The position numbers and the translations under genes were made by a program. A stretch of 64,000 nucleotides of DNA from Neodothiora populina (lineage: Eukaryota): positions 372,001-436,000 of the forward strand of contig NW_027191404.1 in NCBI RefSeq assembly GCF_041146345.1, written 5' to 3'. This document shows positions 2,340-33,006 of the stretch, one piece after another; position 1 is the first letter of the stretch; each line of letters starts with the position of its first letter. Under the pieces are notes generated by a model. The model was not told the DNA's origin and ran no database searches. It worked only from the letters and a program-made list of their open reading frames with translations.

Positions 2340-4001
2340 ATGAATCACACTAAGGCAAGGTCATCAGTGATATATCTGGCGATGCCAGAATGTGGATTCC
2401 AGACAGGAGCGATTGCAGACAGGAGAGATGCTACAACGTATGAAGGACATACGTGGAATCAAATGTATTACGGAAACTTTTTGTATGCGAAGGCTTGTAT
2501 GATTCATATTCATGGGTACAGATGACCAAAAAGTCGAGATGACCGGGTATCATGATCTCTAGTATACATATCTCACTAGCGCACCAGCTTTGATCAGTGC
2601 TGAAGAAACAGAAAATAAGAGGATGCTGCAGCCAACGCAACTCTTCGCGTGTTCTTGTAGGAAACGAAATCCTCGCGACACTCAAACCCCCTTTCCGACC
2701 TTTGAGGCCAGGACCTGAATTCTTTCCATTTAGCAACAACGAGAGGGTCATTGATGTCGCCACCAGCTTGGATAGAGGCGAGGGTCTAGGGAATTGCAGC
2801 ACAACGTAGTTGCATACTGATCAGTGCAGGGGAGAGATCATCGTATTAATCATCTCTCTCCAGAGTGCAAATCAATACAAGGGTCGTCGCATTCGACCTA
2901 GAATGCTATACGAAGACAATCCATCAAGCGAAGCGGGGATCGAGGTAAAAGGTCGCGAATTGAGGTATGACATCCACGTAATTGTGCGGCTGATAGAGGA
3001 GTGAGAGTCGTATATCCATACCACATTGGCCTTGTGAGAGTACAGAATGTGATGAGCCACGACCTGATGTCCGGGTGCTCGGCGACACTTCCAAAAGCGA
3101 AATTTGACCACCAAGGCAAGTTGTATAGAACCGCCATTTCTTCTATCTCGAGGCCCCCATGGAGACCCCACGATTCGACTTGGTCGATCTAAACCAGATC
3201 TGGTAACCACCGTTTTCCGGTTAATATTGTGTCTGATAGACTTCGAAGTTTCTACCGACCTGTATGACAAGAACATGTTGCGGTCGCAATTGCTCCAAGC
3301 TCTATAAAGTGGTTGTGATGTCCTCCTTGTCGGACCAAGCCCGTTTGTATGTGGCTCAGCGTTGGCTTCCCATCGAGTCAGAATCTATCGGATATCTAGA
3401 TACGAGATCGACGTGATTGAAATTGGACTCATCACAGTCGTCTGTCTCGCACATGGATTTCACGTTCTTGAAAGAAGCTTGCAAGCTGTCATTGGAGTTG
3501 TCCTGCGCTGATACTATAGACTTTATCAAGCCGGGACGGAAGCCTATCTTCACCTGGGTCATCCCAATGGGATCAGAGGAACACAGAGTAATAGAGACTC
3601 GACTTTGATGGCCCGCGCATATCACGATCCTCCAAGTGTCACTGGTTCGAAGTTTTAATCTTCGCGGAAGATGGAGAGGACTTCTCATACATTTCCACCT
3701 TGTCCGAACCAGCACGTGAGATGTCCGGAACATTGCTATGGATTTGACCAGTAATTCCTCGCAGTATAGGCAAAGTGACGAGGACATGATCATGGGCAAT
3801 GAGCAGGCTCTGAACGCTCAATCGGCTGGGCCTGACCACATCCCAGGCATTCTTGACATGATCAGTAAAGTCATTGTTAACGAACTGTCGACGATGTATA
3901 CTCGTGCTCAAGTTAACATAGACTCGGTGCGCTCAGAGACTCAAGTGATTTGGAAGGTATTTTTTACTGGTAAGGCCATCGAGAACTCGTTATGTCAATA
4001 A
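2340..4001 (+). pseudogene. Heavily decayed large hypothetical-protein gene; fragments may extend upstream into 1-1207
   Basis: Successive protein-like plus-strand fragments broken by stops and frameshifts: FRLILCLIDFEVSTDLYDKNMLRSQLLQAL (ends 3304); shifted-frame YKVVVMSSLSDQARLYVAQRW; ORF 3417-3608; ORF 3738-4001 (EQALNAQSAGPDHIPGILDMI...WKVFFTGKAIEN). No intact long ORF. Confidence 0.45.
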
Positions 4002-4203
4002 TCTCATGTACAAAGCATTTTATCTATTACACCCAACGAGAATATCTGCCATCGCTGTTCCTATAACGACCATATCGATGCACTCTTTGAAGGAACACTA
4101 TGCTCTTGAGGCGACCAGTGACTGTCAGACCATGAGATTGGAGAGGTCATCTAGTAACAGGTCCGAGACCACGGCTGTCCACGGTGTTGCAATCTGCCGT
4201 TGG

Positions 4204-6761
4204 TCATGGTACCTCATCATAACCTGTGTTGATGGCTCCTAGCAGAATCTTCCATATATTTCCTGAGTAGCAGGGGTTGTGTCGACGATATCCCTACACA
4301 AAGAGTCAGCCCTGATTCCAGACGAGTAAGAGTATATGCATCTCGTACGGATCTGTCCCTAGATCGTCATCCAGATTCTTCAGCTTCTCGATTCCGGAAG
4401 GTTCATCGCCAAAGCGGATGAATTGCAAGCCCACTTGATCGCTGTTGACACGCCTTTCATCGATGGTTCTTGCCATTACTCTGATCGCACGAGCTGCATC
4501 ATCTTGCCATAGTCCATCTGTCAAGATATAGATACTCATCGGGCGGGGATTGCCGCCGAAAATGCCTGGTCGCCTGGATTGGAGCCTTTTCCCATAATCA
4601 ACGAGGATATTTTCTAAAACACTACCAAGGCGCGAGGGAGCAGATCTCATGTCCCTCATAGGCTGTATACGATTCAGCTTGTCAACTGAATTAATTTGCT
4701 TGAACTTCCCATGCCTTCCGTGGATAGTGAAGTATATGTCGATTCCATTGGGATCGTAGTCCTTTGTGATTTCGAGAAGCAGTTTTGTAAGGCTCTGGAC
4801 CGCCGGCCAATGCTGACTCATAGTCTTTGCGTTATCCAGTAGCAGCACCTGACAAAAGTTAAGCTCGAAGGCTCGATCTGGCGTGGTGTCGTTGGTTGAT
4901 ACATACATGATCCCTCTTATCGAGTTTATCCAACATCCCACCATCATCAAGTTTACCTAGTTTCGTTCTTCCTCTAAACACTTTCTCTGCTGCGTCTTCG
5001 ATGCTCATAAGAGGAAGACTGGGTCCCGGCGCGCTGATACTCATAGAAGGTCGACTGGGTCCAGGCTCGCTGATGCCAGCTGTCGCTTTCTCGATGATCC
5101 CTTTGATCTCTAGATACAGAGTCTGAGCACTAGGGCGCTGAGGCGGGGAGGAATTTAACATGTTACGAATCGGTCCCCTGAGGATCTCCAGGGTGAGTTG
5201 ATTGCTGCGAGATGATTCGTTGGAGAGTTCGCGGTGATGGTCCTTGACAATTTTCAACTTTCTTCTGCCGTTGTGGAAGCTAGGTCTCCCGTGCAGACCA
5301 CTTATTCCATCTGTCTCGTTACGCCGCTGTGCACGATACTTTTCCAACCCGTCGATACCATTTACTAGCCAAGTGACAGCCTCGCTAGCTATGCACCCAA
5401 GTGACCAGATATCAGCAGGCTGAGCGAGATGGGTATCGATTTGTTCCCAGGAGCCGTCCGTTTGTATCGTCTCGGGCGCAGCTAGAGCAAGAGAAGTCAG
5501 CCAGAGCGACCTCAAGATGTAAAGGCCTACATACCGTACTCAGCTGAGCCCCATGTATCACTCGTTTCAACACGACTTATCGACCCTCTAGAAACAGCTG
5601 TGGCGAAGTGACTCAATCCGAAGTCCGCCAGCTTAAAGGTATGGCTCTGATAAGCACGCATGTTTTCAACATTGAATACCAATATGTTAGTTGGTTTCAT
5701 GTCCCCATGCCACCTGGTATCATGTGTCAGTCTGGTTCGACAAAGCTGGCGCTAGTAACAAACCCATGGTAGCCCCCATTTTCGTGTACCATGGAGACGG
5801 TCGCGCTCAATGCCAACAAGAAGTTGCGCCAGAAGCTGGTGATATTCATTTCGTCTCGTGGAGGCATTGTGGTTTGGAAGTAGTCTTCTAGGGTTCCAGG
5901 TTCCGCGAACTCCAAGATGACATTGTATGTGCCACCGTGTGTAAATCCTGCAAAGAATTCCACAATCTGGGCATGTTCATTAGGTTCGCCGCTTCGCAGT
6001 CGCATGAAAGCTCTTGTTTCTCGTCCGTAGTGTAAAGCAGCATTAACTGTTTTGTTGTTGTAAGTCTTTAGGGCGTAGCTGTTGGACCTCAGTCTTGACT
6101 ACGCGATAGCTAGTCAGTTTGTTGTAGTAAAGATGACATGCGTTTATGGACCATGAATCGACAAAGATAGATCGTAACTTACAGGAGATTCCTCATCCTG
6201 TTGGAGGCGGTCGTAATCTTGGTGTATCCAAATCCGGTTTATAGTCGAACTTCCACCATCTGTCAACGGTCTACACTCAAGAAAAGGAAGGATCTGATCC
6301 TCGGGCACTTTTGCGTCATGGTGTCGTGTGAATGTTCTCGCACAAAACTCCCATTGTGCCTGATAGAACTTGTTGAATATCTCGGATTCATCTTTTGTAG
6401 ATACAGGGAAATTGGAGGGCCAATTAAGGAATGGTAGCTTCTCGTCGCAGAGATGTTCGTAACCTGTAAATGACTCGATGCAACGAATTTCATTGATCCG
6501 TACAAGTATGCATAGTACTCTTGCATACTTTTGAAAGATAATCTCAAGTGCTAGTGGAGGCGGGTCTGGGTGAAAGATATCGGCAAGCAGTCGATGAATT
6601 TGTTCGTAGTTCTCGAAATATTTAGTTACTTTGGACACTGGGACGAAGCCGATAGCCTTCTTGAGATCATGGTTAGATCTTCCGTCTTCCCTACTCCTCT
6701 CTAGATACTGTAGGAGCTCTCGGGTACTGCGATGGAGGTATTCGGGGGGATGATTCGACAT
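4204..6761 (-). CDS. Ser/Thr protein kinase with C-terminal von Willebrand factor A (vWA) domain; last exon apparently frameshifted
   Basis: Spliced model with introns about 6099-6182, 5714-5763, 5482-5534, 4849-4906, 4294-4348. Kinase motifs YALK, HGDMKPTNIL, LADFG, YAAPE, DIWSLGC. vWA motifs VLLLDNAKTM, DPNGIDIYF, SIYILTDGLW, VGLQFIRFG. The spliced frame stops at 4239-4241; an alternative frame ends at 4204. Confidence 0.85.
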
Positions 6762-7265
6762 CGATGACTGACGTGAAACCGGTTATATTCTACACGAATG
6801 TCGCTTTAGATCAGTCAAATTACATTATAGAGAATCTGCCGAGTTCTGTTATTTGCTGTCTGGTGCAAGGAATAATGATGGTGCAAAGGAATCTTGTGTA
6901 GGCATCCGATAGGTTTGCTTACAATGAGGAGTGGACCGAAGATAAGTGGGGGGAGGGGTCGGTACGTGATCACATCAGCTGCTTATATATGTTGAGCCGA
7001 TAGGCGACTGGTCCGTCTACACTGCCTCCATTTCTGTTGCAAGGAGGGGCTTAGAAAGAAGGCGCAAGTGTCATTGCATGCAGGGTCCGATCAAAGGCCA
7101 ACTTCGCCTGTAGGTTGACCACCCAATCAGACATGAGAACATAGATACAGTATTCGATGAACGGAACCCTTCCACAAATGCCAACTCCCACTGCAAAGAT
7201 ACTTCCGAAGACCAGATTAAGGGAATGCGCTCAGAGGTAGACCAGAAAGATTGTTAAGGAAAGTC

Positions 7266-9149
7266 TTATGCTGATAACGAAACCTGCCTCGGAGAACGTC
7301 CACGTCTTTCCGAGGAATATAACAAAGCCCAAACAGCAAGTGTAAGTACGATCAAAGGGAAGGTCAGGGCCATGAAAAACTTCACGGCTCCAACGTAGAC
7401 GATTCGCTCGGCTTTGTTGGTGACTCCGTTAGTATCCCAAGTTACTATGTCGGTGCTCATGATTGTCTACATGCTATCGTGAGTATTACACGCATGGCTT
7501 AGTATGGCAGAGCTGACTTACTGAAACGAATGTGCCAGGTAGGAAGATGAGCGTGATAAAGGTAATTATCCTCATACTGACAGTCTCCTGTTGAGTCTCT
7601 CTGGCCAATTTGTGCATATCTTTCGTGATACCTTCCATGTCCTGCGTGGACAATTTGCTGGCCTTCATGTTGAGATAATTGAGTAAGCCATATAGCTGCA
7701 CGGTGTCAGTCATCACTTCACAGCAGTGATGGTAGACTTACCAAGCTCTTCCGGTCTTCAACTAGTTTTGCCAACGTCTCCGCGCGTTCTTGGTCAATTC
7801 TCAGCAGCCTTTCCAACTCCTGGAGTTGTCGGTCAAATTGCGCATGATATTCTTCGATCTCGGCCATGGAAAGCATTCCAAGGTCGGCATCAATCAAGTC
7901 CCGGTAGTGGCTCCTTAAAGTCGTAAAAATTTCTTTGTTTGATTCCAAGATCAGGATGGCTTCGTTGCATTTGTCTCCTATGTCTTGTGTTCTCTGCAGT
8001 CTGTCGAAATCGAATCCGAGTCCACTAGATCCTGTATACCGATCATTGAAATGGGCAAACTTAGGCTTTTCGGGAGAAGCAATGTCTGATGAAATGGTTG
8101 ACCGTGTCTTCAGTGATAGAGTCTTCTCCGTGATGCGTCTGATTAGACCTTTATTCTCCAGGGGATCTTGAGAGACAGAGTCTGCCCGGTCATCCGAATC
8201 TTGCGGTCCGTCATCAGCTATAATATGTAAGCCCTTTCTTGTAAGATGCTGTAGCTGAGCTTCTAAAAAATTGATATACCAGCGCCAGTTCTCCACTGCC
8301 CAACGACAGAGAACAAGGTGAATGGCAAACGAAGTCCTAAATCCGACACCAACAGAAGTTGTGCCGTTCGAGGGAGACATAGTCATAACATCTTCCAGTG
8401 ATTTCATTCGTTTTGATAGTAGTTTGTCGGCTTTGACATGTATCCACGTGCTTCGCCCAGTAACCAAATCGAGCGAGTGGTAGAGTGCTGCTTGACGAAC
8501 CGACCAAGGTCAATTCGGCTGGTACGGATGCTTCTCCGGGGCTCTTAAGTTGTAACATATCTCGAACATGGATGTAGATCTCCCAAGTGACGGAATAGCT
8601 GGTCTTTTTCCTGTTCCCAAGACGGGGCTCAAGACATAGCAATTCGTGTAGTTGAAATCGTGTTGTTCCTCCCGTTGCTCCCCGTTCTGCTCGGACATAC
8701 CGAATGAAAGTAGGACATCTACAAAATGTGGCATTACTTGGTGATAAGATAACAACAAATTCGCTGTAGCATGGGTCATCCGAAGTGGCGAACGCGAATT
8801 ATCTGAAGTCAGGAAGCTATGAATGAGATCAGTGTCCGTAAAATAAGACGTAGAGGAGTTTTTCTGACATGAAACGTGACACTGGATCATGATCCCGTGA
8901 CAATTCGTCTAGTCCTAGGTGTTTCTGTAGCGCAATTCTACTTGCACACTTTATCTCTTTGCCGCCTTGATGATGATACGTCTTTCGCTCCCATAGTGTT
9001 ACCAGGTCTGTTGTGTCGAACAATCTCGAGGCCCGGGTATCCAAAGGTTGCTTGAGCCATTCGCGTTGGTATAGATCATCACACGACCATAGAAGATTCA
9101 TCGGGTATTCTTCTCTCTGATGGCAGGACTTCACAAGAGCGTCAGACAT
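7266..9149 (-). pseudogene. Fungal CorA-like domain membrane protein with one in-frame TGA (pseudogene or recoded)
   Basis: Introns about 8817-8868, 7696-7741, 7467-7521. N-terminal LLSYHQVMPHFVDVLLSFG and PWSVRQAALYHSLD, coiled-coil stalk, then ETVSMRIITFITLIFLPGTFVSTIMSTD and a second TM helix, giving the CorA-like two-TM C-terminus. In-frame TGA at 8510-8512. Confidence 0.8.
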
Positions 9150-10560
9150 CTCGATTTAGAACTTGCCGATGTAATGATACATCTTTAAGGAGAACATTAG
9201 GTTTTCTTTATACCGGACAACTGTAGCCCCAAGCTATCTAGAAAACATACAGAACCTGCGGTCACATTGCTGCATGTGGGCAGTGCAACTCGTTCCAATT
9301 TCAAGGTATGCCAGGTCCCCCGCCCCCCGGGCTCAGCCGAGGCGTTTCACGCTGAGGTACCTTGTTCTAATCATGGTTTCTCGGCCTACCCTTGAGCAGC
9401 TGCTCTCTTTCTTCCTGCTCGTTTGTCAGCTTCAAGCAACAAGAAGATACCGGACGGACAATTGCATGTTGACATTTGTTAGGCGTCGCGGTACACGAAA
9501 AGCCCATTCGTTGTCTGCCCTCCACTGAGAAATCATGTCAACAATGTCGCCTGTTATTCTTCCTAAGGCAGCTACCCACCCTAATATGAAAGTTCATTGC
9601 CCCAAATAGTTCTCTTAGATAGCTCTCCACGGCCTCTTCCGTAAGGCGATAAGCAGGAACATAATCCATAACGCTTCGAGTAGACATAGCCGCGCAGGAT
9701 ATATCACGAAACCAGGCGTTTCCAGGTGGGATATTGATCTGGGCAAACTGCTTTTAAATGGATTGGTTGGATGTTGTGTTCAGATGGAGCCATGAAGCTG
9801 GCATGGCGGAGTCTTAAAGCTGTGCATGCCCTGCGAATGGCTCCGTACCAAACGAGCCACCATAGTGGAAGACCTTTGGGCATCATTGAAATCCTATCAA
9901 CTGTTCTCATGAGCCTCAAGTCGCCTCATTCTGAGCGTGAGTCTGCGTTTCATGGCTGCAAATTGGCGGACACTTTGATGGGCCTTTGGCCCCACTCGCT
10001 GTGAGCGCCTAACCGGTGAAGCCTTGATGGCGAATAACAAAACAATATGAGCCGACCTACAGGGCGGGCTGCATCGATTCCCCACCACAACACGGTACCA
10101 GTCAGCGCACCCTTACTGACCTATAGCCATAGAGTACGGCCCTCCAATTCGATGCCGAATCCATATGCGCACTTGCTGGAGTACGGCATCAGAAGCCCTG
10201 CGGCTCAGAAATCTCATTTACAGACCACAAATGAGAAGTTGACCAATTAAAGCTGGACTGAACACAGCAATAAGTACCTAACAGAGAAGCAGTCGTAATT
10301 CAGAAAGTGGCAGAATTAGCGTCGAGGTCATCCGAGTAGCCGGTCATGACCTTAGTTGGCACACGACATTCATGCAACAGCCTTGCGCCGCCCTCTGCGC
10401 CTCAGGCATCAATGACAAGTTGGATTCTACCTACGAGCATTCCGGATCAATGAGCTGCAAGCCAGATGTGCAAATATCAACACCTTCAGCCTCATAGGCC
10501 GGGTGGCACAAATACTTCGAGAATGTCCTGGGCAGGTCATTGAGCACACAGAGACACCAA

Positions 10561-12048
10561 TCATGAGTCGTATATGCATCTCTTCCTGCCTTGGAGGACT
10601 CTTGCCAGCGTATCGCCTACCAAAAGCGCCAGCTCCGCCGAGAAGAAAGCCACCCCTAATTCTTGGCTTGTGTACCAACTGGCACGGTCGAGGTTGCCAC
10701 TTCCTAGAACCACCAACTCGTCATCCACGACGGTACATTTGAGGTGGCTCTGCACTGGCTCTGCTGATGCTGTCACACTACGCTGGCCCTGATCTTGGTC
10801 GCTGACTGCGCCTGAACTAGTATTGCGCCAGGGTTCGTAGAACTCTACTTTCAGATGACCAACGCCTTGTGGCGCGCTTTCGATGTCTATTTTGCTGCTT
10901 TCTCGAAGCCTTGAATGAGCCCTGATGAGCGCCGCGATGCAGCGACTTGTGGTACTGCCTCCAGTGACCAGTTGCTCGAGTATCATTAGACGTGCACTCG
11001 TGACAATATGCACATGTAAATAAGGGTTCTTGTCCAAAGCTTCCAAGATAGCACTGAGGACGGGCGGAGATGTGATATTAGGTGTCTGAATATAGATGCT
11101 CGAGCGTGCCTCTGCGATGGCCAACAGGAGAAATGTGTTCAAAGGAGTCGGAGGCGCAGGCGCATAGTCCTGCCAGGGAAATCGAAAACGCGGGTTTATG
11201 TGATGTGGAGAGGGTAGGAAGATGGTCTTGACGTCTTTCAAGTCTAGCTGGCATGCGGCTGGCAAAGATCGATTCAGCATGGGCTCGTCTGATTCTTGAG
11301 ACGCCGGACTCGTATTGTCCTTGGCCTCAGACCTTTGCGCGCTGAGAAAAGGCTCTGATGATGATGTTTCAATGACCTCTTGGATAGGAAAATGGTAGGC
11401 CTTGTCCGCCGGAGTGGCCCACACTTGCGACCAGAAGTTCAGGAATTGCTCTACTACTGGACCTGTCATTCCCACACAACCCTCGAACCAATCCTCCCAG
11501 CTCACATTGCACGATGGTAGAAACACTTTCTTACGATCGCAGATGATGAATTTAGGGTGCATCACACAGAACGGCAAAAAGAAGATACTCTTGATTTCCA
11601 TGTCGAGACCAGGAAGGGTTTCCACTGACGGCAGGCCAAATTTCGATGGCCATGACGAAGGAGCATAGATTTGACCATTAGGAGAGAAAGTGTGGAAGAT
11701 CTTTTGCAGCAGGGACGACGAGGAGAAGTAGATTCTAACGCGAATTTTTCGGCCTTTTTGTTGCGCTTTGGCAGAGAGGTGGCACAGCACGTCGTTGAAG
11801 GTGTTGAGGGTTCTTGACCGCGCCCAGAAACACGTCACCAAGATTATCTCGCTGGATACTGACTCCAGCGCTGGTCGAATGGTTTTGTATATACCATATC
11901 CAGTACCGAAAGTGAGACTCGTGATGTTGCACGTCGTGGTTAGTGAGGTTGGAGTAGTTGCATAATAATTCGGATGGTCGGCTTGGTTATGTTCAGTCGA
12001 TCCAGAGAGATCTCTACACCATGATTGGAGAAGGCTCTCTTCTCTCAT
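10561..12048 (-). CDS. Phospholipase D/nuclease superfamily protein
   Basis: 495-aa ORF with two HxKxxxxD motifs (HPKFIICD, HLKCTVVD); the second is followed by GSGNLD. Confidence 0.85.
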   Translation of the reverse strand: MREESLLQSWCRDLSGSTEHNQADHPNYYATTPTSLTTTCNITSLTFGTGYGIYKTIRPALESVSSEIILVTCFWARSRTLNTFNDVLCHLSAKAQQKGRKIRVRIYFSSSSLLQKIFHTFSPNGQIYAPSSWPSKFGLPSVETLPGLDMEIKSIFFLPFCVMHPKFIICDRKKVFLPSCNVSWEDWFEGCVGMTGPVVEQFLNFWSQVWATPADKAYHFPIQEVIETSSSEPFLSAQRSEAKDNTSPASQESDEPMLNRSLPAACQLDLKDVKTIFLPSPHHINPRFRFPWQDYAPAPPTPLNTFLLLAIAEARSSIYIQTPNITSPPVLSAILEALDKNPYLHVHIVTSARLMILEQLVTGGSTTSRCIAALIRAHSRLRESSKIDIESAPQGVGHLKVEFYEPWRNTSSGAVSDQDQGQRSVTASAEPVQSHLKCTVVDDELVVLGSGNLDRASWYTSQELGVAFFSAELALLVGDTLARVLQGRKRCIYDS

Positions 12049-12568
12049 AGCTGTGTCTTATCGCAATACAGCCTGCGAGCCGGCTTACTGGATGCAGAAC
12101 TATGTCATAGTGGAAGAAGGAGGATGATACGAAGATAAAACAATAGCAGACGCCTGATTAGATAGGTAGGATCGCCTCACCACATGTCGTCTATCCAGAA
12201 AGACTAGCGGCTTGGCGACGAGCATCTAGTGATACTGTACAGCTAATATTCCAGCGACGACCCTACACTTCTTTCATTTCTTATCTCAACCCCTTAAGAT
12301 CCACTGTTGCTGGGTATATATCAGCAACATCGCCTTATCGAAGATTGTCAAGATCTGAAGTGCCTCCTGTAGTAGGGCGACGCTCTAGCTCTCGCTGCCA
12401 GTTCGAGCACCAGGGATCAGAGGCAAACTCTAAACCCCGACCAATAACAACCTCTCCTATCAGATACCTCAAGCAAATAACAGTCTTGTTTTCGTGCTCG
12501 TGCCATCTTCGCGATATGTAAGCAAGGCGGAGTCTGTAGGACATTGCATTCCGTGTCAATGTCAGACC

Positions 12569-14339
12569 ATGCAGCCATTTCGCTCTCCAAGACTTGGTCA
12601 GCTTTCATCGAACCGTCTAAGTCCTTGCCGTTCTTTCACCACGAGTCGTATAAGAGATCGATTCATCCCATGTTTGTTCACCTGATATATGGCATGCAGG
12701 AGGCTTTTGCTTACAGTGACCAGCTTTCGATCCTTACTCTTACACGCAAGGCCGATGGCTAGACCAAGACACGAAAAGACGAAATGCACGAAGGCTGCAT
12801 TTCGATTTCGACGCCTTGCTGAACTTGGCGATCAAAAGTAGCCCCGGCGCTCATGAAGTAGTGTCTTGCGAGAAGAGGGAAGGTGGTTTCAACCGTGTCT
12901 TCATCATCGAGCTGGATAATGAAGCGAAAGTCGTTGCAAAGTCGCCAACCCGCCTGGCAGGTGCTCCTGGTTTGACTATAAGCTCAGAAGTGGCAACCTT
13001 GCAATATGGTATTCAATCTACAAGATCCTAGGTAAAGGGAACGTTTTGCTGATTTTTCTGCAGTCAGAGAGCACACAGATGTACCTGTCCCCACACCTCT
13101 CGCGTGAAGTTCTACAACGGAGTTCAATCCTGTCGGAACCGAGTACATGGTCACGGACATGGTCTCTGGCGTTGCGCTCAAGGACGTCTGGACTCAAATG
13201 ACCGGGCTACAGTACATACAGTGCATTGAATCACTGGGTAAGATAGCGAGGGACTTGTGTAATCTTGAATTCTCGACGTTTGGCTCTCTCTATATGAACA
13301 CGTCAAAGAGGTCTGTCCGAACACTTCCACTTGACGGAAAGTACTCCATTGGACCTCATTGTGGCCGGCATCACTGGGGTCACAGGTTAGACGAGTCAGG
13401 CGCAGTGAGGATGCCCAAAGGACTTCAGGGGCCTTGTAAGTGTATCCATCTACAGTCACCGATCGCTAAAACTAACACTCGAAAGGGAAAAGGACATTTA
13501 CATATCTTGCTACCCTTGAAAGCATTGCGAGATCAGCCGTTTCGGGCGATAAAGCTCGGCAGACATCGGTCGACAATCATCTGCAGCTTCTGGACGTGAA
13601 CCGAGGCATACTAGGGGCCATCACAGATTTGCAGGTCGTTCGGGATGCTTCTAGGCCTGTCTTATTCCACCCTGACTTTCACGCCCGCAACATCTTTGTG
13701 TCAGCTGACGAACCTACACAGATCACAGGCATCATTGATTGGCAGTCTGCAGCAGTCGAGCCAGCCTACGTCTACGCTGCAGAAACACCCGACTTTGCAG
13801 AGGAATTGTTTTTTGACGAAACGCTAGACGCAGAGCATGGTGCTGATATGGATGCGGCGCATGCTGATACCCAGAGCTGCAACCAAGCCTGGATAGTCAT
13901 GAGCTTTCTTTGTCCCAAGCTAGGCAAAGCCGTGAACCTAGATCCTGTTCTTCTGCAGTACCTCGCTAGTATACATTCCGGCGACCTAGACAACAACGTG
14001 TCTCTTTGCTCGGAACTTACAGATATAAGCCAGAGATGGACGACACTCGGCCTGCCAGGCGATAGCCCCTACAAGCCGAGCCAAGAGGACGCCGAGGCCC
14101 TGGAAACAGAGCTAGATGAGCTTTATTCCACGCAGAGGCTGAAATTGTACCTGGCACGCCTACTTCGCTGCCAGACGGACGGCTGGGTCGAGACGGAGAA
14201 ATGGGAAGAAGTCGTGCCGATATATCGAGCCGAGTATGAGGCTTTCGTCAGGTCTTGTAACGAGAGTCGGGACGAGGGCGAGAGTGAAAGCAATGCTGTG
14301 GCGACGGCGGAGCGGCTGTGGCCGCTTAATATGCGTTGA
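12569..14339 (+). pseudogene. AIM9-like / APH-family phosphotransferase with predicted mitochondrial presequence and one in-frame TGA
   Basis: ATG 12569 (MQPFRSPRLGQLSSNRLSPCRSFTTSR). Introns about 12672-12723, 13009-13063, 13436-13485. Motifs YTQGRWL, EGGFNRVF, SEVATLQY, VPVP, NPVGTEY, LFHPDFHARNIFV, IIDWQ. In-frame TGA at 13105-13107. Confidence 0.8.
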
Positions 14340-30817: not shown

Positions 30818-33006
30818 ATGGCAGACGAAGGTACTGTCGTGTACGAGAGGGATCTGCTGTGCGAACGATGTCGTCAAATGCCTCCAATAATGGAGCTTGA
30901 GGCCTATACCTCTTATGGGCTGCATGAATCCTTTGAAAGTTTCATTTCCTGCGCATGTCCATTCTGCGTCTGGCTTCATAAGTGCATCAGGACCAATCAT
31001 CCGAAGTACAGAGACCATATCGACGGTCCGCGACGTGTTGCAGGGCTTGCCAACGACTCATCTGTTAATCTGCTTGTACACCAAACGGAGGTCATCCAGA
31101 CGACCATCATCATCCAGGTAGGAGGTTCATTCGCAGGCTTCAGCATGGAACTACCACTGTTTGCAGATCCAGGTAAGCGACGATTTGCCATCCTCTGACA
31201 TTCAGGAGTGCACCTGTTTCTAGCGAATTACCCTGATCACGGAATGGTAGCTTGTACTACTTCATGAGCAGGAGAAAACAAATAACAATACGTCTAATTT
31301 GTATCGAACCAGGTACAACCTCTGCATCCCTCATCAGAGGTAGACGCGTTGGTCATGATCCATCATCAGATCTAGTATTTGCGTTGATTCATGCATGGAT
31401 CGAACAATGTGTACATAATCATCCTACTTGTAAACCGCCCACACAAACTAGATTACCATCATATGTCATAGACGTCGGATCTGAGGAGAACCCAGCGCTG
31501 CATTTAATGGAGACGAAAGGTACTTCTTCTTGTCGCTACATCACCCTTAGCTATGCTTGGGGTGTCTCAGAACAACCCATCATGCTCAAGGAAGATAACC
31601 GCGATGCTCTACTGGAATCCATTGCAGAAGACCGTCTACCGAAAACATTGAAAGATGCCATACTTATTACACGAAAACTAGGCGTGCCGTATATATGGAT
31701 CGATGCCCTGTGCATAGTCCAGGACAACAAAATCCAAAAGAAAGGCGAGATAGCAAAGATGAAGCATATATTCGGTGATTCCTTCCTCACGATCCAAGCG
31801 GCCAATGCTCACTCCGTGCATGAAGGAATACTGAATCCGCGAGCGAACTATGAAATTCCACCTCAGAAGCTCCAGCTGTGTCGTTACGACCAGGCATTTT
31901 GTTTCCTCATGTCAAGAGATCTCTCAAGTGAGCTGGGCGCAACAGAAACAAGAGCCTGGTGTTTCGAGGAGTCAGTTCTCCCTAAAAGATTACTGATCTT
32001 TGCCAAGGAACAGATCATGTTCAAATGCGATCAAGGGGTGCAGCTGGAGGATGGACGGATAACAGGAAGCACGACCTCGGCCAATGCTATAAAGCTCAAA
32101 CCTTGGTTCAACGGGTTGCCACTTGCAAAAGAGAAAAGAGTGCCAGACACCAAACTCGATGCATTGAAGGCGTGGTACAACGCTCTAGATCTACATTATA
32201 CACCCAGACTACTCACAAGCCCACACGATCGTCTTCCGGCTATCGGCGGAGTCGTAAAGCAGTTCCAACCTTGGATCGGTGGGCAAATTCTTGCTGGAAT
32301 CTGGAAAGCAGACATGATCTGGGGCCTGCTCTGGTCATCTCACAACCACATCGTCGGATTGTGGGTCAGTAAAGAACTTTCGACTTACTGGACAAATCGC
32401 AAACATAGTAAAATCAAGAAACCACGGCTCCACGCACCATCCTGGTCGTGGGCTTCCTTAGATGGGCGCACTATACATAAGTTCGCCGCGAGATTGAGCT
32501 CAGACACCCAAAGAGCTCAGATACTTCGCTACCCTGAATCGAAAGACGACTCTGCTCTAGGTGATCTCAAGGATTGGACACTAATCATGTCCGCTCCACT
32601 GAGAATTGCTCATCGTCTGCCTTATGTCGAGCAGAATGTAGAGCTGAGGAAGAAGCTGACCTCCGGTCGCGGCCTGAACTACCCAGGTCTGCACCGAGGC
32701 GAGCTCGCGGAGTTTCTGCTCGACGCACCAGATGATGGGCACATCGCTGGTATAGCCTGCTACGACATCTTGCAAGATACCCCAGACAAAGTGTGGTGTG
32801 CCCTATTCACCACGACATGGGGGGTAATGCTCGAGCCAATCGACTCTTCATCCTTCGACCTCGACAGCACTGAGATGAGCTTTGATCAACTCAATCTAGA
32901 CCCTTCGTACCAGACATTCCGGCGTGTGGGCACCTTTCGTACCTATAAAGAGGAGGAAACACAGTGGATCCTCGAGGAACATAGAACGGAATTTTGCATT
33001 ATTTGA
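30818..33006 (+). CDS. Heterokaryon incompatibility (HET) domain protein
   Basis: N-terminal CxxC pairs; intron about 31172-31312; YITLSYAWG, LPKTLKDAI, YIWIDALCIVQD, TRAWCFEE, DRLPAIGG, APSWSWAS. Confidence 0.92.

What the first reader, a model, noticed from the sequence alone, without database searches (positions are those of the whole stretch)
2340..9149. Candidate three-gene fungal signalling/conflict module: CorA-like membrane protein, kinase-vWA and a convergent large hypothetical protein
Seen: a CorA-like two-TM gene lies about 500 bp upstream of, and co-oriented with, a kinase-vWA gene that has a full set of catalytic motifs. The kinase 3' end abuts a convergent large gene, now decayed. 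None looks like a housekeeping gene. Established: in prokaryotes, vWA plus kinase pairs (the TerY-phosphorylation triad) and CorA-family membrane effectors (type III CRISPR-associated CorA) act in stress and defence systems. Inference: this is a linked sensor/kinase/membrane-effector cassette, perhaps for non-self recognition or regulated cell death. All three genes carry lesions while the core genes further along are intact, as expected if a dispensable unit is being lost together. My recollection that these families co-occur in other ascomycetes is unverified.
Basis: partly seen in the sequence, partly recalled or inferred. Interest (0 to 1): 0.75.

Follow-up and report, generated by a model that had tools for sequence, protein, structure and literature searches.

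The report
Decaying fungal channel-kinase three-gene cassette
Three neighbouring genes of this fungus (a tiny protein, a magnesium-channel-shaped membrane protein without the usual pore motif, and a kinase joined to a vWA domain) stay together in many distantly related moulds and lichen fungi, so they probably form an undescribed working unit, although this copy is breaking down and its job is untested.

Summary
The CorA-like and kinase-vWA genes are real, co-oriented and 503 bp apart; each has one lesion (an in-frame TGA; a last-exon frameshift). In 16 independent groups of related loci the small gene precedes the CorA-like gene in 12 of 12 informative groups and a kinase is adjacent in 10 of 11, while other neighbours differ. 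All three evolve under purifying selection. The membrane protein has the CorA fold but a conserved STD for GMN. Best mechanism (about 0.4, inferred): a sensor kinase gates a non-Mg2+-selective pore held in check by the small protein, in stress or cell-death signalling. No binding or function is shown. Earlier scan notes reported the same cassette in other fungi and gave me the small-gene lead, which I tested here. Ten paper searches found no description.

The parts
9367..9687 (-). Small gene, 68 codons, exons 9687-9580, 9524-9474, 9414-9367; intact; predicted beta-alpha-beta-beta-alpha fold; no Pfam family
   Evidence: Model; both introns (55 and 59 nt) skipped in a same-sample contig; homologues upstream of the CorA-like gene in 29 of 33 loci examined; spliced homologues P0054, P0057 and an NCBI-annotated one from Extremus antarcticus; fold
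7265..9149 (-). CorA-fold two-TM membrane protein gene (PF26616 in homologues), 4 exons, GMN replaced by STD; broken by one nonsense codon
   Evidence: fold of homologue P0035: Z 17.4 to M. jannaschii CorA
8510..8512 (-). In-frame TGA in exon 2 of the CorA-like gene (codon 196), upstream of the stalk and both TM helices
   Evidence: no other letter at this place in run X1, which may be the source of the window
4204..6761 (-). Kinase-vWA gene: about 160-residue helical N-terminal domain of no known family, non-RD Ser/Thr-type kinase, linker, vWA domain; exons 6761-6183, 6098-5764, 5713-5535, 5481-4907, 4848-4349, 4293-end
   Evidence: two of five introns seen as skips, and contig ends at 5482 and 5535 fit a third
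4239..4275 (-). Frameshift in the last exon and the early stop it causes (740 residues); the last conserved vWA helix is lost
   Evidence: the spliced contig of run X2 covers 4149-4292 with no other letter and no gap
2340..4157 (+). Decayed coding-like remnant, convergent to the kinase; NOT part of the conserved cassette
   Evidence: Coding signal; stops; no homologue

Best explanation
This is a decaying copy of a conserved three-gene cassette of filamentous ascomycetes: small protein, CorA-fold membrane protein, kinase-vWA. Shown: the three genes, their linkage, purifying selection, the fold, the loss of GMN, the lesions (about 0.9 that they work as one unit). Inferred mechanism (about 0.4): the C-terminal domain of the kinase (vWA, or a beta-propeller in one group) is an exchangeable sensor; on activation the kinase phosphorylates the variable Ser/Thr/Pro-rich loop of the channel's cytosolic domain and opens an oligomeric, not Mg2+-selective pore, which depolarises or kills the compartment; the small protein, never separated from the channel gene, is a bound inhibitor or assembly factor that keeps the pore shut. 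It would work like RIPK3-MLKL or CRISPR-associated CorA without being a member of either. In this genome the channel is dead, the kinase has lost the end of its vWA domain, and only the small gene is intact.
For: Linkage: of 40 loci fetched with the CorA-like alignment, 22 hold a kinase of this family and 1 a more distant kinase within about 3.5 kb; collapsed to 16 independent groups a kinase is adjacent in 10 of 11 informative groups, the small gene directly upstream in 12 of 12, 217-466 bp before the CorA ATG. Other neighbours are shared only inside one group. The small gene keeps its place when the kinase flips to head-to-head (2 groups). Merged CorA-kinase-vWA models in Bacidia and Xylaria and the small gene in Extremus span three classes. 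dN/dS 0.09-0.31 for every comparison with dS of 0.1 or more. CorA fold, Z 12.8-17.4 for the ten best rows, all CorA/ZntB/CmaX/Mrs2; TM1 nearly invariant, STD for GMN. Non-RD catalytic loop in 21 of 21 matched kinases. vWA in 6 of 7 groups that reach the C-terminus, a beta-propeller in the seventh. Dispensable: broken CorA copies in 2 of 16 groups and here. [quoted passage not shown]
Against: No function, substrate, localisation or binding is shown. Purifying rather than diversifying selection and a single copy per genome here are unlike typical het genes. One group (L013/L021, 8 kb up and 6.4 kb down) has small gene and channel but no kinase, so the kinase need not be adjacent. In 2 groups (L007, L037-039) the catalytic-loop Lys is Ser, which may impair catalysis. 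Small-protein distances do not track CorA distances significantly (Mantel r 0.22, p 0.07). Intact small gene beside broken channel genes is expected from target size alone (68 against 576 codons). The reverse test (how often kinase-vWA genes lack a CorA-like neighbour) was not run. vWA identity rests on motifs and weak Pfam hits in 3 of 11 members.
Confidence: 0.45

Rival explanations
1. The same three-gene unit, but a non-lethal ion or stress signalling module: a regulated cation channel (Zn2+, Mn2+, Ca2+ or other) whose kinase senses metal through the vWA MIDAS, with the small protein as accessory subunit.
For: Purifying selection; conserved TM1 and an acidic/hydroxyl STD motif that could still bind cations; MIDAS-like Asp, Ser and Thr-Asp conserved in 11 vWA exons; ZntB and CmaX are among the best fold matches; low copy number.
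Against: Repeated pseudogenisation (and this window); vWA replaced by a beta-propeller in one group; the cassette sits among different neighbours in each independent group.
Confidence: 0.3
2. A developmental unit (hyphal fusion, septal plugging, sexual development) that is dispensable in lineages that have lost that stage; the TGA might even be restored by stage-specific RNA editing.
For: Restricted to filamentous ascomycetes in my searches (none in prokaryote genomes or viral contigs); kept under purifying selection yet lost repeatedly.
Against: The TGA is not shared with any of the other loci; stops in relatives fall at other codons; the kinase frameshift cannot be mended by base editing; UGA is a poor context for fungal A-to-I editing (recalled).
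Confidence: 0.15
3. One reading: the convergent gene at 2340-4150 is the third member.
For: It abuts the kinase 3' end and is decayed; plus-strand coding signal.
Against: No match in 0 of 40 related loci by tblastx or six-frame phmmer; no shared gene downstream of the kinase between independent groups; far more decayed than the cassette genes.
Confidence: 0.04
4. Linkage is inherited synteny with no functional meaning.
For: Loci were found through one gene and many come from a few related lichen or soil fungi.
Against: Flanks are not shared between independent groups, and even inside one group flanking genes change side while the trio stays; none of seven other CorA-family loci of this genome, nor 64 kb of control DNA, has a small-gene, vWA or kinase N-terminal-domain match.
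Confidence: 0.03

Closest known systems
CorA / ZntB / CmaX / Mrs2 / Alr1 channels (MIT or 2-TM-GxN superfamily, PF01544)
   Same: Fold of the cytosolic alpha/beta domain, long stalk helix and two C-terminal TM helices (Z 17.4, rmsd 5.5, 271 aligned to 4ev6); the Pro-x-Thr of TM1.
   Different: GxN replaced by STD; long disordered Ser/Thr/Pro-rich insertion; 7-12% identity; dedicated partner genes; dispensable.
Type III CRISPR-associated CorA effector (PMC10600005)
   Same: Divergent CorA-family membrane protein tied to partner genes; there it is toxic alone and tempered by its partner.
   Different: No Cas10, SAM-AMP or NrN; its N-terminal domain is described as a unique fold, whereas here the cytosolic domain is CorA-like; no prokaryotic relative found.
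RIPK3-MLKL necroptosis and fungal HeLo/HELL, gasdermin and NLR two- or three-gene cell-death clusters (PMC12881547)
   Same: Small cluster with a candidate sensor or kinase and a candidate membrane effector; variable C-terminal domain on the sensor.
   Different: No NLR, HeLo, gasdermin, protease or amyloid motif seen; effector fold is CorA; purifying selection.
Grass kinase-vWA fusions, wheat Lr9 WTK6-vWA (PMC10260399)
   Same: Kinase fused to a C-terminal vWA domain proposed to sense or act as decoy.
   Different: Independent fusion; single kinase with a fungal N-terminal helical domain; no Vwaint; linked to a channel gene.
TerY-phosphorylation triad of prokaryotes
   Same: vWA domain with a Ser/Thr kinase.
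   Different: vWA is fused to the kinase; no conserved PP2C phosphatase neighbour; channel and small protein instead.

Membership tests
CorA/MIT superfamily (fold) | CorA cytosolic fold with stalk helix | tested here: met
   Model of homologue P0035 (pLDDT 68): 22 Foldseek matches at E<=0.001, listed rows all CorA; VIA Z 12.8-17.4
CorA/MIT superfamily (fold) | Two C-terminal TM helices | tested here: met
   Hydropathy; model
CorA/Mrs2/Alr1 Mg2+ channels | GMN (GxN) selectivity motif after TM1 (PMC9276622, PMC13022745) | tested here: not met
   STD in the window; no GxN in any of the 30 loci (with the window) where the loop could be read
CorA/Mrs2/Alr1 Mg2+ channels | Pentamer that conducts Mg2+ | not testable with these tools
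Type III CRISPR CorA effector system | Cas10 cyclase and NrN/DEDD/lyase partner | tested here: not met
   Eukaryotic locus; no such neighbour; no PADLOC match of that kind; no prokaryotic relative
Protein kinase (ePK) | Lys, alphaC Glu, HxD-x-K-x-x-N, DFG, APE, DxWSxG | tested here: met
   non-RD (HGD)
Protein kinase (ePK) | Catalytic activity | not testable with these tools
   Gly-rich loop is atypical; Lys to Ser in 2 groups
vWA domain | Rossmann-like vWA pattern with MIDAS (DxSxS ... T ... D) | tested here: inconclusive
   First Asp and Thr-Asp invariant, fifth-position Ser nearly so, third position variable; window has D-N-A-K-T; Pfam VWA/VWA_2 only weakly in 3 of 11; related to a stand-alone vWA protein of this genome with DxSGS; not folded
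TerY-phosphorylation triad | Conserved PP2C phosphatase partner (recalled) | tested here: not met
   No flank gene shared between independent groups
Fungal het / allorecognition loci | Diversifying or balancing selection, allelic incompatibility | tested here: inconclusive
   Gene-wide dN/dS 0.09-0.31; no population data or site models
Fungal NLR / HeLo / gasdermin cell-death clusters | NLR, HeLo, gasdermin or HET domain in the cluster | tested here: not met
   No such Pfam match in the cassette exons or homologues

The most novel reading that the evidence does not exclude
A fourth kind of fungal regulated cell death: a kinase with an exchangeable sensor domain opens a CorA-fold pore that has lost Mg2+ selectivity, and a 70-residue protein encoded just upstream (possibly on the same transcript) is its antidote. 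It would be a eukaryotic recruitment of the CorA fold as executioner, convergent with RIPK3-MLKL and with CRISPR-associated CorA.
Probability: 0.3. Interest if true: 0.9.

Novelty: categorically new. Interest (0 to 1): 0.62.

Why it matters
A three-gene unit kept across at least three ascomycete classes, with a different neighbourhood in each lineage, marks a pathway that has not been described in the papers I could search. One survey of eukaryotic Mg2+ transporters kept only sequences with GMN (PMC13022745, passage), which would drop this family, and the 68-codon three-exon gene is easily missed by annotation. If the unit is a kinase-gated death pore it adds a new executioner fold to fungal immunity; if it is an ion channel it is a CorA with a new filter, its own kinase and an accessory subunit. 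Both are directly testable with intact orthologues. This particular copy is broken and is useful mainly as evidence that the unit is dispensable.

Tried and rejected
RNA editing of the TGA: rejected, see rivals. Assembly error as the cause of the lesions: not supported, but X1 and X2 are one sample and X3 does not cover either site, so strain variation is unknown. No RNA holder was listed; X2 is labelled DNA but shows four intron skips; it gives no cover of the CorA gene below 9019, which is no evidence either way. Complex prediction of small protein with the channel: not available, no verdict. Fold search of the small protein: no Foldseek match at E<=0.001, best Z 4.8, only a common alpha/beta arrangement; Atlas hits 0.79-0.85 to unnamed clusters, leads only. 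Kinase N-terminal domain: no Pfam or PDB sequence match; not folded. Trees of the three proteins are mostly unresolved; CorA against kinase distances correlate (r 0.62, p 0.0002, 13 rows) but kinship alone can give that. No relative in prokaryote genomes (33 pattern hits, 0 confirmed) or viral contigs (41, 0 confirmed). PADLOC and NCBIfam gave generic kinase hits only. A TATA-like word lies in the small-gene/CorA gap here and in 6 of 13 loci, so a bicistronic transcript is not established. In one search I looked for a kinase at 32.8 kb through an offset slip; the hit is the kinase at about 42.5-42.9 kb. Paper searches found no description of the cassette; the library lacks most subscription papers and no supplements were read.
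Full report
The locus. The window is G000:C3:372001-436000 of a 24 Mb genome in 18 contigs, with short spliceosomal introns, so a fungus. The CorA-like gene runs 9149-7265 in four exons, 576 codons, with two C-terminal hydrophobic helices and one in-frame TGA at 8512-8510, at a column where most homologues have Trp. The kinase-vWA gene starts 503 bp further on at 6761, has six exons and a complete set of kinase motifs. A frameshift near 4275-4266 ends it after 740 residues; the last conserved vWA helix lies in another frame up to 4204. Each gene is single-copy in the genome at the sensitivity.

Are the lesions real? Run X1 matches the window at both sites but may be its source. Run X2, the same sample, has contigs that skip two predicted kinase introns and cover the frameshift with no gap or other letter, so the shifted form is what is spliced. 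No independent strain covers either site.

The convergent region is not part of it. 2340-4157 has a plus-strand coding-like signal (z 4.1 against 30 shuffles) but 26-27 stops in each plus frame. Its best frame has no credible homologue among 1.84 billion proteins, no frame has a Pfam match, and it matches 0 of 40 related loci. It is an old remnant that happens to abut the kinase.

Linkage of channel and kinase. An alignment of 26 CorA-like proteins (all 28 hits carry PF26616, whose name CorA-like I recall) fetched 40 metagenome loci. A kinase of this family lies within about 3.5 kb in 22 of 40, a more distant kinase in 1, and a vWA domain in 17; 15 of the 17 without a kinase end too soon to tell. 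The loci fall into 17 DNA clusters, 16 after merging two that share flanks. A kinase is adjacent in 10 of 11 informative groups, tandem in 8 and head-to-head in 2; L013/L021 has none. Of 7 groups that reach the kinase C-terminus, 6 have vWA and one (L035) a beta-propeller. Merged CorA-kinase-vWA gene models in Bacidia gigantensis and Xylaria multiplex may be annotation merges, but show adjacency in two more classes. Apart from one weak hit, no flank gene is shared between independent groups or with this window.

The real third gene. Earlier scan notes mentioned a small upstream gene in other fungi; I tested that here. All-against-all tblastx of upstream DNA showed a conserved short frame about 1 kb before CorA exon 2, and the window has it: 9687-9367, three exons, 68 codons, intact, ending 217 bp before the CorA ATG. 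With the window's protein alone as first query, a model was found in 29 of the 33 loci examined; the 4 misses had only 315-633 nt to search and one of them shows exon 2 at its edge; 7 loci were too short to examine. For L015/L029 only exons 1 and 2 are well supported. That is 12 of 12 informative groups, including both head-to-head groups and the group without a kinase; the gap to the CorA start is 282-466 bp in 23 loci. The profile hits nothing else in the loci or the window. Both introns are skipped in an X2 contig, spliced homologues exist in the protein collection (P0054, P0057) and one is annotated in Extremus antarcticus. That contig continues through the gap into CorA exon 1, which fits a shared or overlapping transcript but does not show one. 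The predicted fold is beta-alpha-beta-beta-alpha (pLDDT 79) with no specific match.

What the proteins are. A full-length homologue from an intronless contig (P0035) folds as CorA: the ten best VIA rows are CorA, CmaX, ZntB and Mrs2 (Z 12.8-17.4), above unrelated helical bundles (10.1 and lower). TM1 is nearly invariant, and the GxN filter that defines the Mg2+ channels (PMC9276622, PMC13022745; passages) is replaced by STD in most members. The genome has other CorA-family genes, at least two with GMN. A low-confidence, variable Ser/Thr/Pro-rich insertion (residues 296-369 of P0035) sits in the cytosolic domain. The kinases are non-RD in 21 of 21 matched cases, with Lys to Ser in the catalytic loop of 2 groups, and carry a conserved N-terminal helical domain of no known family. 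The vWA call rests on motifs and weak Pfam hits. Across 18 pairs of close loci, dN/dS is 0.09-0.31 for all three genes wherever dS is 0.1 or more, and up to 0.53 where dS is smaller. CorA exon 2 is broken in 2 of 16 groups as well as here.

How it most likely works. Shown: three genes, tight linkage without wider synteny, purifying selection, CorA fold without GMN, exchangeable kinase C-terminus, repeated decay. Inferred: the vWA or propeller is a sensor, the kinase phosphorylates the channel's loop and opens a pore of altered selectivity, and the small protein binds and restrains or assembles the channel. I put a cell-death or defence role at about 0.4, non-lethal ion or stress signalling at 0.3 and a developmental role at 0.15.

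Comparison and novelty. It belongs to the CorA fold superfamily but fails the GMN test for Mg2+ channels; it has none of the defining partners of CRISPR CorA, the TerY triad (recalled) or fungal NLR/HeLo/gasdermin clusters. Ten searches of the open-access library found no description; passages of PMC8195603, PMC7159879 and PMC2441471 were read and do not describe it; no supplements were read and subscription papers are mostly missing. Earlier notes of this scan report the same pair or trio in other fungi; they are leads, not support. No relative was found in prokaryote genomes or viral contigs. I rate the cassette as an undescribed kind of system with an unproven mechanism, seen here in a broken copy: interest 0.62.

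Noticed in passing
window 10561-12057 (-): Phospholipase D-family gene (PLDc_2), open for 498 codons, directly upstream of the small gene; the 2930-nt X2 contig that holds the spliced small gene runs about 2 kb beyond 10000 and may reach it. Not shared with any related locus.
   Followed up: partly
window 12694-14339 (+): APH-like phosphotransferase gene with introns.
   Followed up: no
window 31237-33003 (+): HET-domain gene (PF06985, E 7e-26), 22 kb from the cassette; no sign of linkage.
   Followed up: no
L003 (G000:C6:2022119-2025310): Stand-alone vWA gene with a full DxSGS motif, the only other match to the cassette's vWA exon in this genome.
   Followed up: no
L035 1846-5312 (-): Kinase of the same family, head-to-head with the small and CorA-like genes, with a beta-propeller in place of vWA.
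   Followed up: yes
L043 97-2824: Distant CorA-like gene followed by a different kind of kinase, hinting at a wider set of CorA-like / kinase pairs.
   Followed up: partly
L013 6821-9500: Small gene plus CorA-like gene with no kinase and almost no other coding frame in 15.9 kb.
   Followed up: partly
L016 against L024 and L033: Within one related group the flanking dehydrogenase and another gene change side while the trio stays intact.
   Followed up: partly
L015 8493, L029 8043 and 8990, L040/L041 about 8430: Independent stops or frameshifts in CorA exon 2 of relatives.
   Followed up: partly
window 9323: One-letter length difference in a C run between the window and run X1, in the gap between small gene and CorA-like gene.
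   Followed up: no
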